From Escherichia phage JoYop, in sequence record OR769032.1: a stretch of 64,000 nucleotides of DNA; one strand, given 5' to 3'. This document shows positions 1,732 to 63,488 of this stretch, piece by piece. Numbering within the stretch: position 1 is the first letter of the stretch; each line of letters opens with the position of its first letter. The position numbers were made by a program, and so were the translations under genes. The notes under the pieces were generated by a model. It was not told the origin of the DNA. It ran no database searches and was given only the letters and a program-made list of their open reading frames with translations.

Positions 1732-2388
1732 ATGGCAGCACCTAGAATATCATTTTCGCCCTCTGATATTCTATTTGGTGTTCTAGATCGCTTGTTCAAA
1801 GATAACGCTACCGGGAAAGTTCTTGCTTCCCGGGTAGCTGTCGTAATTCTTTTATTTATGATGGCGATTGTTTGGTATAGGGGAGATAGTTTCTTTGAGT
1901 ACTATAAGCAATCAAAGTATGAAACATACAGTGAAATTATTGAAAAGGAAAGAAATGCACGCTTTGAATCTGTCGCCCTGGAACAACTCCAGATAGTTCA
2001 TATATCATCTGAGGCAGACTTTAGTGCGGTGTATTCTTTCCGCCCTAAAAACTTAAACTATTTTGTTGATATTATAGCATACGAAGGAAAATTACCTTCA
2101 ACAATAAGTGAAAAATCACTTGGAGGATATCCTATTGATAAAACTATGGATGAATATACAGTTCATTTAAATGGACGTCATTATTATTCCAACTCAAAAT
2201 TTGCTTTTTTACCAACTAAAAAGCCTACTCCCGAAATAAATTACATGTACAGTTGTCCATATTTCAATTTGGATAATATCTATGCTGGAACAATAACCAT
2301 GTACTGGTATAGAAATGATCATATAAGTAATGACCGCCTTGAATCAATATGTTCTCAGGCGGCCAGAATATTAGGAAGGGCTAAATAA
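1732..2388 (+). CDS. t: holin T
   Basis: 218 aa, sequence MAAPRISFSPSDILFGVLDRLFKDNATGK... matches my recollection of T4 holin almost residue for residue; SD AAGGAGGG; AATAAATA late-promoter-like element at ~1706. Confidence 0.95.
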   Translation: MAAPRISFSPSDILFGVLDRLFKDNATGKVLASRVAVVILLFMMAIVWYRGDSFFEYYKQSKYETYSEIIEKERNARFESVALEQLQIVHISSEADFSAVYSFRPKNLNYFVDIIAYEGKLPSTISEKSLGGYPIDKTMDEYTVHLNGRHYYSNSKFAFLPTKKPTPEINYMYSCPYFNLDNIYAGTITMYWYRNDHISNDRLESICSQAARILGRAK

Positions 2389-2661
2389 TTATTTGTTTGT
2401 ATACATCTCTAGATATCGATATACACCCTCAAAACCCTCGTTGAATTCGTCGATGAGGGTTTTCTTATCTTCTTGAGTTAATTCAGAAACAATTTTACGG
2501 AATGAATTCTGATTTAATTTTCTACCTTCATGCGTTACTCCAATCTCATTCAGAAATGCGATAAAATTAGCACGATTCTCAACAATATCTTCTCTGGAAA
2601 ATTTAATCAAAATAGACGCAACAGTAATAATTTCACGAACTGTATCAATGTTTTTATTCAT
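2389..2661 (-). CDS. asiA: anti-sigma70 factor AsiA
   Basis: 90 aa, MNKNIDTVREIITVASILIKFSREDIVENRANF... matches recalled T4 AsiA. Confidence 0.95.
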   Translation of the reverse strand: MNKNIDTVREIITVASILIKFSREDIVENRANFIAFLNEIGVTHEGRKLNQNSFRKIVSELTQEDKKTLIDEFNEGFEGVYRYLEMYTNK

Positions 2662-2673
2662 TAACTATACCAC

Positions 2674-2826
2674 TCAATTAGTTGACTTTATTATAATATC
2701 ATCAGACACTTGATTTGTAAACTGGTCTGTGTTATTTTCTTCAAAAATTTTTTCTACGAATTCCTTGAACGACTCACGTTCCTGAGCTACATTATGCTCG
2801 ATTACCTTTTCAAGATTATGACTCAT
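2674..2826 (-). CDS. hypothetical small acidic protein (50 aa)
   Basis: ORF below track cutoff found by manual translation (MSHNLEKVIEHNVAQERESFKEF...); start overlaps arn stop in ATGA arrangement. Confidence 0.4.
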   Translation of the reverse strand: MSHNLEKVIEHNVAQERESFKEFVEKIFEENNTDQFTNQVSDDIIIKSTN

Positions 2827-3101
2827 TCGAAATAATCTTCAATTTCGTAATCATGGACGTAAATCATTATAGTTTTTAATACATCATCAATACTTTTTCC
2901 TGGAGCTGGAATTACGTAAAAATATCCCGCCTTTAAGTTATCTTTATAAGTTCCAACCAAGAAATCATTATTCTCAAGATGTAGTTCTTCAACTAATTCA
3001 TTAACAATTGAGTGGTATAAATTTGGTAGAAACTTATATAGCTTTTCTAGAATATCAATTTTGATTGTATATTGAACCACAGATTGAGAATCAATAATCA
3101 T
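2823..3101 (-). CDS. arn: Arn-like anti-restriction protein (McrBC inhibitor)
   Basis: 92 aa, same size and position (next to asiA) as T4 arn; sequence consistent with my recollection. Confidence 0.7.
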   Translation of the reverse strand: MIIDSQSVVQYTIKIDILEKLYKFLPNLYHSIVNELVEELHLENNDFLVGTYKDNLKAGYFYVIPAPGKSIDDVLKTIMIYVHDYEIEDYFE

Positions 3102-3184
3102 AGACCTTCCCCTTATGTTTCTGTTTGCGATTAGATTCTTTAAACGCTTTCTTCTTATCCTTATGAACAGAAGCTTTATTAAAA

Positions 3185-3403
3185 TTATGTTTTGCGACTA
3201 AATTGTTCATAGTGTTGAATTACCTCTCTTAAACATTTGCATGTGAATGAAAACTTTTTAGCTACACCACATTCAAATATATGTTCTCTTAAATCACGTG
3301 TGTCAGTATATCCCATCTCAACAATAAAATGCCGTATTAGATTTTTATCTTTATCATTGAGAGAGTTAAAATAATCGGATTTTGAATTAATTTCCCTGGC
3401 CAA
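3185..3403 (-). CDS. hypothetical protein (72 aa)
   Basis: Track ORF in the arn-motA interval; no motif recognised. Confidence 0.5.
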   Translation of the reverse strand: MAREINSKSDYFNSLNDKDKNLIRHFIVEMGYTDTRDLREHIFECGVAKKFSFTCKCLREVIQHYEQFSRKT

Positions 3404-5393: not shown

Positions 5394-6718
5394 TTGATTT
5401 CCTCTAAATCTTTGGTGTATTCTGTAACTACATCAGTAGTTTTCCAATATTCGTTCTCTTCTTTTTTAGCTTTAGCTTCTTCAGCAAGTTTCTTTGCTTC
5501 ATCGGAAGTCATATGAAAAATATTCATTCCGACTAGTTTATCAGCATAAGAAGAATACATATCAATTTTAGAAAGTTCTTCAGTCAGTTCTTTGCGAGTT
5601 TTACCCTGTACAACGATTTCACCTGAAATTACTTTCTTAATGAAATGGGCCTTAGCAAAGGCTAAACGAAATGCTGACTCAGTTTCTTTGATTTTGTTAT
5701 CAATTCGTTTTTGGACATAAGTTTTACGAACTTCAACAAAGTCTTTGATTAAATCGACTACATTATCGTAAACTTGAAGCTTTCCTTTCTCATTAATAAC
5801 CGTAATATTCTGAGAACGACGCTCAATCAACCCGAAGTCTTTCATGATTTTTGCATGGCGTTCTTCTTCGTTATCACTCAAAGAGTATTCTTTACGGAAT
5901 TTAATTTTAAAACCAAAACCATGCTCACCGCAAGCATCATCCCATGTAATGAAGCCTTTATCTTCAAGCGGGTCTAAAATTTTGCTCACATAAGTTTCAC
6001 GATCATACTTATACGGAATCTCAGTGATATTCATTTGAGTTCGTGAAGTAAACTTGTATGTTCCGCGAATTTCATATTGTCCATCAATTTCAACGACTTC
6101 ACCGCGAAATTCTGGGAATTCTACTTTCGGTTTAGTTACTTTCTTTCCTTGAAGAGCTTGCAATACAGCTTTCTTGACAGAAGAAACACTATGAGGAAGA
6201 ATGTAAGTTGCATAACCAGTTGCAATACCGGAAACACCATTAAGAAGAACGGTAGGAATAATAGGCAAATAGAAAGCAGGCGGAATGTGTTCTTTATCTT
6301 GATGTACCGGAGCATATTCAGTATCTTTATATACACTATAGAAATTTTTACTTACACGAGCAAAAATATAACGACTTGCCGCTGCTTTTTGAACGGTACG
6401 AGAACCAAAGTTTCCTTGACCATCTAACAGAGGAAAGTTATTATTCCAAGTGTTAGCCATCAAAGCACCTGCGTCTTGCGCAGAGTTTTCACCATGATGA
6501 TATCCAAGGTCCGCTACACCACCTGCAATAGAAGCGAGTTTGTGAAACTTATCTTTATTTCCTCGTGCCAAATCAAGAGCTCGAGCAATAACAAATCGTT
6601 GAACTGGCTTAAATCCATCAATCATATTTGGAATGGCACGATTTTCAACCGTGTACATAGCATAAGCCAATGCTTCATTATCAATGATACTTTTTAAATC
6701 GCGATTATTCAGTTGCAT
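5390..6718 (-). CDS. 52: DNA topoisomerase II medium subunit gp52
   Basis: 442 aa, same size and position as T4 gp52; conserved topoisomerase-type segments. Confidence 0.9.
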   Translation of the reverse strand: MQLNNRDLKSIIDNEALAYAMYTVENRAIPNMIDGFKPVQRFVIARALDLARGNKDKFHKLASIAGGVADLGYHHGENSAQDAGALMANTWNNNFPLLDGQGNFGSRTVQKAAASRYIFARVSKNFYSVYKDTEYAPVHQDKEHIPPAFYLPIIPTVLLNGVSGIATGYATYILPHSVSSVKKAVLQALQGKKVTKPKVEFPEFRGEVVEIDGQYEIRGTYKFTSRTQMNITEIPYKYDRETYVSKILDPLEDKGFITWDDACGEHGFGFKIKFRKEYSLSDNEEERHAKIMKDFGLIERRSQNITVINEKGKLQVYDNVVDLIKDFVEVRKTYVQKRIDNKIKETESAFRLAFAKAHFIKKVISGEIVVQGKTRKELTEELSKIDMYSSYADKLVGMNIFHMTSDEAKKLAEEAKAKKEENEYWKTTDVVTEYTKDLEEIK

Positions 6719-61244: not shown

Positions 61245-61302
61245 TTTCTGTTCCTCCGTAGTTGATAGTTGTATAGTACCACAGAGGAACAGTCTTGTAA
61301 AC
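61242..61302 (-). promoter_or_regulatory. early promoter plus leader cassette (type B copy 2)
   Basis: 61 bp identical to 8253..8313. Confidence 0.6.
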
Positions 61303-61304
61303 AA

Positions 61305-61619
61305 CTAAAAGAAACTTCTTTCACAATTTTTTCCACTGAACCAGGCGCTCACTGCTTTCTTAGTCTCGGGAGCAGTGTTATCCATAAACCATTCAAAGGC
61401 AGCCTTTTTATGATTCTGGAGGGCTTCTCGGGCTTTAATCTGCTCACGGTCTATTAACACTAACATATGAGCCTTTCTTGTCACCATGGGCTTCTTATGA
61501 TTTTTTGAATACTCCCAATCATTTGTCCATCGCATTGTCGTTGCGAATTGAAGTACAGCTTCTTTAATTTTAGTTTCGTAAATTTCACGAGCCTTTGAGT
61601 ATAACATTATTACCTCCAT
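61305..61619 (-). CDS. hypothetical protein (104 aa)
   Basis: Track ORF. Confidence 0.5.
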   Translation of the reverse strand: MEVIMLYSKAREIYETKIKEAVLQFATTMRWTNDWEYSKNHKKPMVTRKAHMLVLIDREQIKAREALQNHKKAAFEWFMDNTAPETKKAVSAWFSGKNCERSFF

Positions 61620-61689
61620 TCACCAGTTTAATTCTAGTCATCTTTTCGATGGCAGTCCATATAATCTATTTCTGAACTGCCTTTTTGTC

Positions 61690-62409
61690 TTACGATTCTT
61701 CTAAATGTCTTTTCTGAAAAGTTGATACCATACTACGATATGGTTCATTTGGATACCCGTGTTTTATAGCTTCCTTTGTAAATTTTCTCCATCCATATTT
61801 GGTTTCTTTCCAAAGCTCGAATAATTCATCTTCATATTGCCATATAGTTAAATGAGAACGCTTTGCAGCTTTAATTCCATTAATGTGCTTTTCTTTTACT
61901 GTAGGATTGCTTAGTGTCTTTTTAATAATATTACTAACTTTTCTAACAAAAGCTGGGTCCTTATATCGTTGTGAAGTTTTTATTGAAGTGTTTAATTTAG
62001 CTTCCGGCGTGGATGTGACCTCTTTCATCTTTTTCTTCATATGCTGTATATGATTAGGATTTTTCCATAAATTTATAGAATGCTTTTTACATTTTATCCT
62101 AGTTTCATCTGCAACCTTTCCTCCTTCACCCCCATATGACAGGTTAACACAGTTTTTTCCATATTTCAATTTACCTGCCATGATATATAATATTTCAGCT
62201 TGTACCATTTTATCATAATTATCAAAAACTTCTAAAACCGTTTTTGATAATATGTGGTCATTTGACACTTTTACACGTTCTATATAATTTCCACTACCAA
62301 CATATGAATCATTGATGTTATTAGTTATATGTCGACCATAATAGTATTTCTTAATACCTGTCTTTAAATTTAATATTTCAGTTTTATAGATAGTAAAATA
62401 TTTTTTCAT
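61690..62409 (-). CDS. GIY-YIG-like nuclease domain protein (239 aa); possible Seg-type endonuclease
   Basis: N-terminal TIYKTEILNLKTGIKKYYYGRH...YVGSG resembles GIY-(10-11)-YIG; basic C-terminal half with repeated K/S/N motifs; start overlaps ATPase stop (ATGA). Confidence 0.4.
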   Translation of the reverse strand: MKKYFTIYKTEILNLKTGIKKYYYGRHITNNINDSYVGSGNYIERVKVSNDHILSKTVLEVFDNYDKMVQAEILYIMAGKLKYGKNCVNLSYGGEGGKVADETRIKCKKHSINLWKNPNHIQHMKKKMKEVTSTPEAKLNTSIKTSQRYKDPAFVRKVSNIIKKTLSNPTVKEKHINGIKAAKRSHLTIWQYEDELFELWKETKYGWRKFTKEAIKHGYPNEPYRSMVSTFQKRHLEES

Positions 62410-63374
62410 TTTAATAATACCGTTTCAGCAATTTCTTCCCAATGGTTTTTGTCGGTCATAATAAAGTCAGCAAGATAAAGAGCAGTACGCAGTGAAACAT
62501 TGCGTAAACGATTAACATTAACTTTCATCCATGATAATGCTTTATAAGTTTCTTCATCAGAAAGACCACGTTTTTGCATCATGTCAGTTGAAAGAATAAC
62601 ATCTTCAACCCTGACCATAATTTCTTCATTAGTGTGAACACCTAAATCTAAATAAACTGAGCGGGACACTAATGCTTGTAAATGTGGAGCAAGTTTAGTT
62701 CCACGGTCTAATTCACGGTCAATGTCAACGTTTGTGATAAAAACAATCGTTCCTTTAAATTCAAACTCACGCTCAATGCCTTTTTCTTCTAAGTAAGAAG
62801 ATGCAGTGCTCCAGCAGACTTTACGGGTCTCTCCAGTGTCCAGAGCAGCTTTTAGAAGATTAAGAATGTCCATATCAGAGAAAACATCCACATCATCAAT
62901 TAAAAGGACAGAATTCTCTTCACGATTATTCCAGAGCTGCTCATAAAGACCGATACCAGAGATTTTACCATTAATGCTTTTATATTCAATGTATCCAACA
63001 TCATTTGCTTTATTTAAAGCTTTATCTAAAGAATACGTTTTACCAATACCTGCCGCACCAGAGATAATTAATGAACGAATGTTTCCGTTAATAATACCAT
63101 TCGTCATCATTCCCATAACATTAAATCTTTTATTAATGCGGGTTTTCATATCTTCATATGATTCTTTAACTTCTTCAACTTTTACACCATCATATGAAAT
63201 ATCTGATTTGTAAACCCAAACACCGCGACGCTTACCGTCAATTTCAACAAAAACTTTACCATCTCCTTGTGCATCTACCGGAGCATTATCTGGGAACCAT
63301 TCACCTAAGAGCTCAAAAGTTCCAGAGATTTCTTTACCGAAGTAGATACCCTTATTGATAGTTACAGTTTTCAT
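62406..63374 (-). CDS. P-loop NTPase (AAA+-like), 322 aa
   Basis: Track ORF trimmed to the ATG after leader GGAGAACAAA; Walker A GAAGIGKT, Walker B VLLIDDVD. Confidence 0.6.
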   Translation of the reverse strand: MKTVTINKGIYFGKEISGTFELLGEWFPDNAPVDAQGDGKVFVEIDGKRRGVWVYKSDISYDGVKVEEVKESYEDMKTRINKRFNVMGMMTNGIINGNIRSLIISGAAGIGKTYSLDKALNKANDVGYIEYKSINGKISGIGLYEQLWNNREENSVLLIDDVDVFSDMDILNLLKAALDTGETRKVCWSTASSYLEEKGIEREFEFKGTIVFITNVDIDRELDRGTKLAPHLQALVSRSVYLDLGVHTNEEIMVRVEDVILSTDMMQKRGLSDEETYKALSWMKVNVNRLRNVSLRTALYLADFIMTDKNHWEEIAETVLLK

Positions 63375-63438
63375 TTTGTTCTCCAAATCCGTATCAGTTG
63401 ATAGTTGTATAGTACCATAAAGCTTTATGCTTGTAAAC
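63375..63438 (-). promoter_or_regulatory. early promoter plus leader cassette (type A)
   Basis: Coding strand GTTTACAAGCATAAAGCTTTATGGTACTATACAACTATCAACTGATACGGATTTGGAGAACAAA-ATG. Confidence 0.6.
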
Positions 63439-63468: not shown

Positions 63469-63488
63469 AGGGAGCCCGAAGGCTCCCT
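63469..63488 (-). terminator. terminator hairpin (AGGGAGCC-UUCG-GGCUCCCU) plus U-tract
   Basis: Perfect 8-bp stem with tetraloop followed on the - strand by a T-run. Confidence 0.55.

What the first reader, a model, noticed from the sequence alone, without database searches (positions are those of the whole stretch)
61690..63374. P-loop ATPase overlapping a GIY-YIG-like nuclease gene
The 322-aa ORF has clear Walker A (GAAGIGKT) and Walker B (VLLIDDVD) motifs and its own cassette promoter. Its stop overlaps by ATGA the start of a 239-aa ORF whose N-terminus resembles a GIY-YIG nuclease core with a basic C-terminal half. A free-standing GIY-YIG gene would suggest a Seg-type homing endonuclease, but the tight overlap with an ATPase could instead indicate a two-gene ATPase-nuclease module.
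Basis: partly seen in the sequence, partly recalled or inferred. Interest (0 to 1): 0.5.

Follow-up and report, generated by a model that had tools for sequence, protein, structure and literature searches.

The report
Seg homing endonuclease beside nrdC.10
The nuclease gene is a selfish "homing endonuclease" cassette that has inserted next to a conserved ATPase gene of a T4-like phage; the two genes are not a functional pair, and the same cassette is already annotated in phages RB32 and T6, so this is ordinary.

Summary

The two-gene module idea fails. The nuclease gene is in 66 phage records. In 435 records nrdC.10 abuts nrdC.9 with no insert, and nrdC.10 occurs in 1103 records overall. Flank haplotypes of carriers and non-carriers are intermixed. 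The cassette is 732 nt replacing 35 nt. It has no promoter or Shine-Dalgarno sequence of its own and supplies a recoded nrdC.10 tail, which creates the ATGA overlap.

A 46%-identical homologue sits at the same breakpoint in 10 records of Klebsiella phages (the one examined is a Jiaodavirus), there with an 8-nt spacer instead of an overlap. Some copies are decayed; intact ones are under purifying selection. This is already known as an annotated putative homing endonuclease. Its cleavage site is untested.

The parts
62406..63374 (-). nrdC.10: conserved 322-aa AAA+ ATPase of unknown function. It is the neighbour gene into whose 3' end the cassette is inserted.
61693..62424 (-). Mobile cassette: 732 nt present in carriers and replaced by 35 nt in non-carriers. 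It includes the recoded last 5 codons and stop of nrdC.10, and the whole seg ORF except its stop codon. The stop (61690..61692) lies in sequence shared with non-carriers.
   Evidence: BLAST breakpoints at q1076 and q1809. Junction alignment of 6 carriers and 6 non-carriers.
61690..62409 (-). Seg-type free-standing GIY-YIG homing endonuclease gene, 239 aa, equivalent to RB32ORF093c.
   Evidence: dN/dS is 0.06-0.13 between the more divergent intact copies.
62119..62409 (-). GIY-YIG catalytic domain, residues 1-97, with beta-beta-alpha-beta-alpha topology. Y8, Y23, G25, H27, E72 and N89 are conserved.
61693..62115 (-). Basic DNA-binding half, residues 99-239: five 17-residue helical repeats (99-183) followed by a three-helix HTH-like end.
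62406..62409 (-). ATGA overlap: seg start codon and nrdC.10 stop codon share two bases. There is no Shine-Dalgarno sequence within 20 nt upstream.
62407..62424 (-). Recoded nrdC.10 tail. 12 of these 18 positions differ consistently between carriers (…ETVLLK*) and non-carriers (…EVTLLK*). This is the candidate altered target site.
63409..63438 (-). T4-type early-promoter-like site that would drive the nrdC.10-seg-nrdC.9 transcript.
63469..63488 (-). Intrinsic terminator between nrdC.11 and nrdC.10.
   Evidence: Annotated as a terminator at the same place in phage Kha5h.

Best explanation
The 239-aa gene is a free-standing Seg-type GIY-YIG homing endonuclease gene. It is a selfish cassette inserted at the 3' end of the conserved AAA+ gene nrdC.10 of a T4-like phage.

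The cassette has no promoter and no Shine-Dalgarno sequence of its own. It is read from the early transcript that starts upstream of nrdC.10 (inferred). It is probably translated at a low level by termination-reinitiation at the ATGA overlap (inferred).

During mixed infection with a relative that lacks it, the enzyme would cut the empty allele at or near the nrdC.10/nrdC.9 junction. Recombinational repair from the carrier genome would then copy the cassette in (inferred from the established behaviour of SegA-G, not shown here). The recoded nrdC.10 tail carried by the cassette plausibly removes the recognition site and protects the carrier (inferred).

nrdC.10 is a bystander host gene, not a partner of the nuclease.

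For: Family:
- phrog_314 'homing endonuclease' at 5e-30 and PADLOC HEase at 4e-8.
- T4 SegB is the only T4 paralogue found by tblastn (27.5% identity, E 4e-6).
- Of 60 relatives, 24 hit Pfam SegE_GIY-YIG, 19 hit GIY-YIG and 19 hit NUMOD3.
- Every column that is invariant in either family alignment (G25, Y36, G38, G40, E72, N89, G93, G94), and the nearly invariant Y8, Y23 and H27, are kept in this protein.

Sporadic distribution:
- The seg DNA is in 66 phage records, all 97-99% identical.
- The uninterrupted junction is in 435 records.
- nrdC.10 is in 1103 records.

Clean indel: 732 nt replace 35 nt. Fixed differences between carriers and non-carriers occur only at the junction. The flanking haplotypes are intermixed.

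Same breakpoint elsewhere:
- A 46%-identical homologue in Klebsiella phage ValerieMcCarty03 (Jiaodavirus) breaks the nrdC.10 tail at the same place. The variant is found in only 10 records (9 Klebsiella phages and one Serratia phage), and an empty site exists in phage Roth66.
- The Serratia record, phage 92A1, carries a decayed copy in the same position.

Selection and decay: intact copies show dN/dS of 0.06-0.13 between the more divergent pairs. Decayed copies exist in AR1 and in RB3/RB10. This mix fits the life cycle of homing endonuclease genes.

No expression signals of its own: no early, middle or late promoter motif and no Shine-Dalgarno sequence lie ahead of seg. There is no notable RNA structure at its start.

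Prior record: annotated in RB32 as a putative site-specific intron-like DNA endonuclease 'similar to seg'. Petrov et al. 2010 count two seg-like genes in RB32 (PMC2993671).
Against: Pfam GIY-YIG (PF01541), SegE_GIY-YIG (PF19835) and NCBIfam do not hit this sequence directly. A family profile matches the I-TevI sequence only at E 0.68. Foldseek with the whole model found nothing.

The protein deviates from the family's KYGxxNF motif. The equivalent of the catalytic Arg27 of I-TevI cannot be placed with certainty; R45 is the candidate.

No cleavage, target site or homing has been shown for this protein. I found no paper on it.

Characterised Seg enzymes usually cut hundreds of bases from their gene (PMC2988022). 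The junction may therefore not be the cleavage site.
Confidence: 0.9

Rival explanations
1. The ATPase and the nuclease form a functional two-gene module. The AAA+ protein would load, regulate or power the GIY-YIG nuclease, as in ATPase-nuclease defence or repair systems.
For: The genes overlap by ATGA and lie on one transcript. The nuclease homologues sit directly 3' of nrdC.10 in ValerieMcCarty03 (Jiaodavirus, 46% identical to this protein) and in Serratia phage 92A1 (DNA 80.5% identical to the ValerieMcCarty03 gene).
Against: nrdC.10 occurs without the nuclease in about 87% of close relatives (435 against 66) and in almost all other Straboviridae. Flank haplotypes are uncoupled from cassette presence. 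The overlap is replaced by an 8-nt spacer in the Jiaodavirus phage ValerieMcCarty03. nrdC.10 is under equally strong purifying selection in T4, which lacks the nuclease. PADLOC finds no module, only 'HEase'. The adjacency is explained by site-specific insertion.
Confidence: 0.03
2. The ORF is a decaying or catalytically dead relic of a homing endonuclease, kept only because removing it would damage the nrdC.10 tail or neighbouring expression.
For: It diverges from the family motif KYGxxNF and is missed by Pfam. Decayed copies exist in AR1, RB3/RB10 and Serratia 92A1. The cassette supplies the last codons of nrdC.10.
Against: The ORF is full length here and in most of the 66 copies. dN/dS is 0.06-0.13 between the more divergent intact copies. 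The core residues Y8, Y23, E72 and N89 are intact.
Confidence: 0.05
3. The nuclease has been co-opted for a benefit to the phage beyond its own spread. Examples are excluding markers of co-infecting relatives, or promoting segmental amplification of nearby genes, as reported for SegB in T6.
For: There is purifying selection on intact copies. SegB, the closest T4 paralogue, drives amplification of anti-defence loci in T6 (PMC13096335).
Against: There is no direct evidence for this gene. Its low frequency (13%) and decayed copies fit a purely selfish element. This rival is compatible with the main explanation and extends it rather than replacing it.
Confidence: 0.1

Closest known systems
RB32ORF093c and its T6, RB14, RB3-10, RB68 and AR1 orthologues (annotated 'putative site-specific intron-like DNA endonuclease, similar to seg')
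   Same: Same gene: 97-99% DNA identity. Same position between nrdC.10 and nrdC.9, with the same ATGA overlap.
   Different: Only point differences, mostly synonymous. None of these copies has been characterised experimentally as far as I could find.
T4 SegB (and the SegA-G family of free-standing GIY-YIG homing endonucleases)
   Same: N-terminal GIY-YIG domain plus a basic modular DNA-binding half. Located between conserved genes, in the same orientation as its neighbours, with sporadic distribution. Like segC, segF and segG it is a promoter-less cassette (PMC2988022).
   Different: Only 27.5% identity to SegB over 166 residues. It occupies a different locus, absent from T4. It has no Shine-Dalgarno sequence and overlaps the upstream stop codon. 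The label 'segE' used in the AR1 and RB68 records is not supported: in the T4 records listed, tblastn found only one match, and in RB55 that position is annotated segB.
I-TevI (intron-encoded GIY-YIG endonuclease of T4 td)
   Different: It is not intron-encoded. It has no zinc finger. Sequence similarity is marginal (E 0.68 with a family profile). The linker and DNA-binding region is a five-fold 17-residue helical repeat.
Klebsiella phage ValerieMcCarty03 (Jiaodavirus) endonuclease (VMC263_95) and the decayed copy in Serratia phage 92A1
   Same: A homologue, 46% identical at protein level, inserted at the same breakpoint in the nrdC.10 tail. It is also sporadic: 10 records.
   Different: It is separated from nrdC.10 by an 8-nt spacer instead of an ATGA overlap. 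It supplies a different replacement tail (…EVTQLRG*).

Membership tests
Seg-type free-standing GIY-YIG homing endonuclease | GIY-YIG catalytic fold with the conserved Tyr, Tyr, Glu and Asn | tested here: met
Seg-type free-standing GIY-YIG homing endonuclease | Direct match to the curated GIY-YIG profiles (Pfam PF01541 / PF19835) | tested here: not met
   No hit at E <= 1, and none in NCBIfam. However, 24 and 19 of 60 relatives hit these profiles, and the PHROG and PADLOC homing-endonuclease profiles hit directly.
Seg-type free-standing GIY-YIG homing endonuclease | Conserved catalytic arginine (I-TevI R27 equivalent) | tested here: inconclusive
   The family has R at alignment position 42 or 45. 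The query has Y42 and R45, within predicted helix 41-48. The equivalence was not verified by superposition.
Seg-type free-standing GIY-YIG homing endonuclease | C-terminal modular DNA-binding region (NUMOD-type helices, HTH) | tested here: inconclusive
Seg-type free-standing GIY-YIG homing endonuclease | Free-standing gene between conserved genes, present or absent among close relatives with clean boundaries | tested here: met
   66 carriers against 435 empty sites. 732 nt replace 35 nt. Flank haplotypes are intermixed.
Seg-type free-standing GIY-YIG homing endonuclease | Carrier allele differs from the empty allele at the target (self-immunity) | tested here: inconclusive
   12 fixed differences lie in the last 18 nt of nrdC.10, and there is an analogous tail replacement in the Jiaodavirus phage ValerieMcCarty03. 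The cleavage site is unknown.
Seg-type free-standing GIY-YIG homing endonuclease | Site-specific cleavage of the endonuclease-less allele and non-reciprocal transfer in mixed infection | not testable with these tools
   This needs a nuclease assay and phage crosses. No publication on this gene was found.
ATPase-nuclease two-gene module | Co-inheritance of the two genes | tested here: not met
   nrdC.10 is in 1103 records. The nuclease is in 66 records, plus 10 for the Klebsiella/Serratia-phage variant.
ATPase-nuclease two-gene module | Conserved coupling architecture or a match to a known module | tested here: not met
   The overlap becomes an 8-nt spacer in the Jiaodavirus phage ValerieMcCarty03. 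PADLOC gives no hit for the ATPase and only 'HEase' for the nuclease.
AAA+ ATPase (nrdC.10) | Walker A, Walker B and the AAA+ alpha/beta core with a helical lid | tested here: met

The most novel reading that the evidence does not exclude
This Seg lineage may be a specialist for the conserved 3' end of the AAA+ gene nrdC.10 in at least three lineages of Straboviridae (Tequatrovirus, the Jiaodavirus phage ValerieMcCarty03, and Serratia phage 92A1). On this reading it cuts at or next to its own insertion point, unlike the characterised Seg enzymes, and carries a replacement gene tail as built-in immunity. Intact copies are under purifying selection and SegB was recently shown to drive amplification of anti-defence loci, so the gene might also give carriers a competitive or anti-defence benefit rather than being purely selfish.
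Probability: 0.15. Interest if true: 0.4.

Novelty: already known. Interest (0 to 1): 0.12.

Why it matters
It matters little. It adds one more uncharacterised Seg endonuclease with a well-defined empty site and a candidate target, the last codons of nrdC.10. That target would be easy to test in T4 x T6/RB32 crosses.

It also shows that an ATGA overlap with a P-loop gene in a phage genome need not signal a functional pair. Promoter-less homing cassettes create such overlaps by themselves.

Finally, it flags propagated mis-annotations in GenBank: nrdC.10 labelled 'thioredoxin' and this gene labelled 'segE'.

Tried and rejected
- Pfam and NCBIfam scans of the nuclease gave no GIY-YIG hit.
- phmmer of the nuclease against PDB sequences gave only noise. 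A 60-sequence family profile reached I-TevI only at E 0.68.
- The first word-indexed homologue search found only 2 proteins. The exhaustive representative search and a profile search were needed to build an alignment.
- An RNA hairpin hiding the seg start, as described for the T4 HNH endonuclease gene mobE (Gibb & Edgell 2009, listed in the references seen), was not found (z -0.30).
- No T4 middle (MotA box) or late (TATAAATA) promoter lies ahead of seg.
- A PADLOC scan for defence-type ATPase-nuclease modules gave none.
- A suspected frameshift in nrdC.11, suggested by the ORF list, was checked. The frame is open to the window end, so there is no frameshift.
- Literature searches for nrdC.10 and RB32ORF093c gave only the 2006 comparative-genomics note that nrdC.10 matches the AAA motif.

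Full report
**What is there.** The window is part of a Tequatrovirus (T4-like) genome. A 3-kb query around the finding matches RB33, RB32, T6, RB14 and AR1 at about 97% over its full length. The last 25 kb of the window match the best records at 95-96%.

Both ORFs of the finding are on the minus strand. 62406..63374 encodes 322 aa with Walker A GAAGIGKT (residues 106-113) and Walker B VLLIDDVD (156-163). 61690..62409 encodes 239 aa. The minus strand reads ATGA at 62409..62406, so the second ORF's start codon overlaps the first ORF's stop codon. Residues 98-239 of the second protein are basic, with 32 K+R against 15 D+E.

Upstream of the first ORF lie an intrinsic terminator (63488..63469) and a GTTTACA-17-TACTAT site (63438..63409). 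That motif occurs 16 times in the window, always on the minus strand, against 0.22 expected by chance. It is the T4 early-promoter type.

**The ATPase.** It is nrdC.10, by position and annotation in T4T and RB32 and by phrog_1250 at 7e-166. Pfam AAA models hit only below their cut-offs. This echoes the 2006 note that nrdC.10 orthologues weakly match the AAA motif (PMC1524935).

The gene is conserved across Straboviridae. It is found in 1103 phage records, 502 of them at 95-99% DNA identity. Protein homologues are 53-99% identical.

**The nuclease: evidence that missed or was weak.**
- Pfam and NCBIfam do not hit it.
- phmmer against PDB sequences finds nothing.
- A 60-sequence family profile reaches I-TevI only at E 0.68, although the GIY, YVG, Glu75 and Asn90 stretches align in register.

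**The nuclease: positive evidence.**
- phrog_314 'homing endonuclease' hits at 5e-30 over the whole length.
- Two PADLOC 'HEase' models hit at 4e-8.
- tblastn finds T4 SegB at 27.5% identity over 166 residues, E 4e-6.
- An exhaustive search finds 1465 relatives. Of 60 relatives aligned, 24 match Pfam SegE_GIY-YIG, 19 match GIY-YIG and 19 match NUMOD3.
- Family-conserved residues are all kept here. G25, Y36, G38, G40, E72 and N89 are invariant in the 60-sequence alignment, E72, N89, G93 and G94 in the 108-sequence one, and Y8, Y23, H27 and D34 are nearly invariant.

**The nuclease: structure.** An AlphaFold model from a 108-sequence alignment has pLDDT 82 overall. Ten-residue blocks of the N-terminal domain range from 81 to 96. 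The domain has beta-beta-alpha-beta-alpha topology.

- The nuclease DNA is in 66 phage records, one copy each, all 97-99% identical.
- The uninterrupted nrdC.10/nrdC.9 junction is in 435 records. About 13% of close relatives therefore carry the gene.
- All other genera keep nrdC.10 without it, apart from the cases described below.

Aligning six carriers, including the window, with six non-carriers shows a clean replacement. Window 61693..62424 (732 nt) stands in place of 35 nt.

The only positions that consistently separate carriers from non-carriers lie at the junction. They are 12 of the last 18 nt of nrdC.10, plus a few bases in the short segment that the aligner places against the replaced 35 nt. 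Carriers end …GCTGAA ACG GTA TTA TTA AAA TGA (ETVLLK*). Non-carriers end …GCTGAG GTT ACT CTT CTG AAA TAA (EVTLLK*). The ATGA overlap is thus a product of the cassette, which brings its own version of the gene's tail.

In 950 nt of nrdC.10 and 1040 nt downstream, carrier and non-carrier haplotypes are intermixed. For example, the nearest nrdC.10 to RB68 (carrier) is EC121 (non-carrier). The nearest downstream flank to T4 (non-carrier) is T6 (carrier).

**The same insertion point in other phages.** A 46%-identical homologue sits directly 3' of the nrdC.10 homologue of Klebsiella phage ValerieMcCarty03, a Jiaodavirus. That variant is found in only 10 records, 9 Klebsiella phages and one Serratia phage. 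Klebsiella phage Roth66 shows the empty site.

The breakpoint is the same, right after GCTGAAGTAAC in the last codons of nrdC.10. There, however, the replacement tail is EVTQLRG* and an 8-nt spacer separates the genes. Serratia phage 92A1 has a copy split into two ORFs at the same place.

Recurrent, sporadic occupation of one precise site in diverged hosts is what site-specific homing predicts. The loss of the overlap argues against a conserved coupled module.

**State of the gene.** Between the more divergent intact copies dN/dS is 0.06-0.13, so the protein is maintained. Copies in AR1 (truncated to 165 aa) and in RB3/RB10 (an indel) are decayed. This mix is typical of homing endonuclease genes.

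**Expression.** No early-promoter motif lies inside nrdC.10 or the cassette. Between 61250 and 63500 there is no MotA box and no full TATAAATA late-promoter motif. There is also no Shine-Dalgarno sequence within 20 nt of the seg ATG, whereas nrdC.10 and nrdC.9 each have GGAG about 10 nt upstream. The start region has no notable RNA structure (z -0.30).

The gene is therefore a promoter-less cassette, like segC, segF and segG in T4 (PMC2988022). It is presumably translated by reinitiation at the ATGA, which would keep levels low. That step is inferred.

**Mechanism.** The best explanation is intronless homing as established for SegA-G. The enzyme cuts the empty allele of a co-infecting relative, and recombinational repair copies the cassette and some flanking sequence into it. 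This is established knowledge for the family (PMC2988022), not tested here.

The recoded tail is a good candidate for the altered recognition or cleavage site. Known Seg enzymes often cut hundreds of bases away, however, so this remains a hypothesis.

**Novelty.** The gene was annotated in RB32 as 'putative site-specific intron-like DNA endonuclease, similar to seg'. It is annotated in many later genomes. Seg-like genes of RB32, T6 and RB14 are counted in Petrov et al. 2010, Table 5 (PMC2993671).

I found no experimental paper on it. The label 'segE' in the AR1 and RB68 records is not supported. In the T4 records listed, tblastn found a single match, at the position annotated segB in RB55.

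**Verdict.** This is an ordinary, already-annotated free-standing homing endonuclease next to a conserved AAA+ gene. It is not an ATPase-nuclease system.

Noticed in passing
window, 16 sites from 2693 to 63438, all on the minus strand: GTTTAC-N17-19-TAYWAT (T4 early-promoter type) occurs 16 times, all on the minus strand, against 0.22 expected by chance. The whole 64-kb window is therefore an early-transcribed, leftward-oriented region. Two of the sites (63438..63409 and 61302..61273) share an extended GGTACTATACAACTATCAAC tail.
   Followed up: partly
window 61651..61681 (-): A conserved 9-bp-stem hairpin with a 13-nt loop (GGCAGUUCA…UGGACUGCC) lies between the seg stop and nrdC.9. It is present in both carriers and non-carriers. 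Folding z-score for the 101-nt stretch that contains it is -2.58, and there is no U-tract, so it is not an intrinsic terminator. Its function is unknown.
   Followed up: partly
window 62444..62446 (-), nrdC.10 codon about 20 nt upstream of the cassette junction: This codon is CAT (His) in the window, TAT (Tyr) in BF15 and GGT (Gly) in the ten other phages compared. It is a two-base change at one codon right next to the putative target region.
   Followed up: no
L007 (DalCa) 2520..2929; also records OZ035760 and MZ189262: Some Tequatroviruses carry an extra 0.5 kb or so between nrdC.10 and nrdC.11. In DalCa it holds two small ORFs. This is another variable insertion point flanking nrdC.10.
   Followed up: no
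L012 (AR1) 2722..3219; RB3/RB10 (H75, H76, H129); L013 (Serratia 92A1) 2098..2711: These are decayed copies of the same endonuclease gene. AR1 is truncated to 165 aa, RB3 and RB10 carry an indel of about 7 nt, and Serratia 92A1 is split into two ORFs.
   Followed up: partly
GenBank records seen: Annotation noise has propagated between records. nrdC.10 and its neighbours are labelled 'thioredoxin' in many records. This seg is labelled 'segE' in AR1 and RB68. nrdC.9 is labelled 'HNH homing endonuclease' and nrdC.8 'tail sheath protein' in T6 AP018814.
   Followed up: no
window 61605..61619 (-), start of nrdC.9: The window reads GGAGGTAATAATG where most relatives read GGAGGTAATGATG, so one of two tandem ATG codons is lost. 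The ORF list extends nrdC.9 to an upstream ATG at 61619 (104 aa). The T4 annotation (100 aa) corresponds to a start at 61607.
   Followed up: no
L002 (RB32) 5810..6271, beyond the window end: In RB32 the HNH homing endonuclease gene mobD, which follows nrdC.11 in T4, is replaced by an unrelated 153-aa ORF. Three independent variable or mobile sites therefore surround the nrdC.10-nrdC.11 pair.
   Followed up: no
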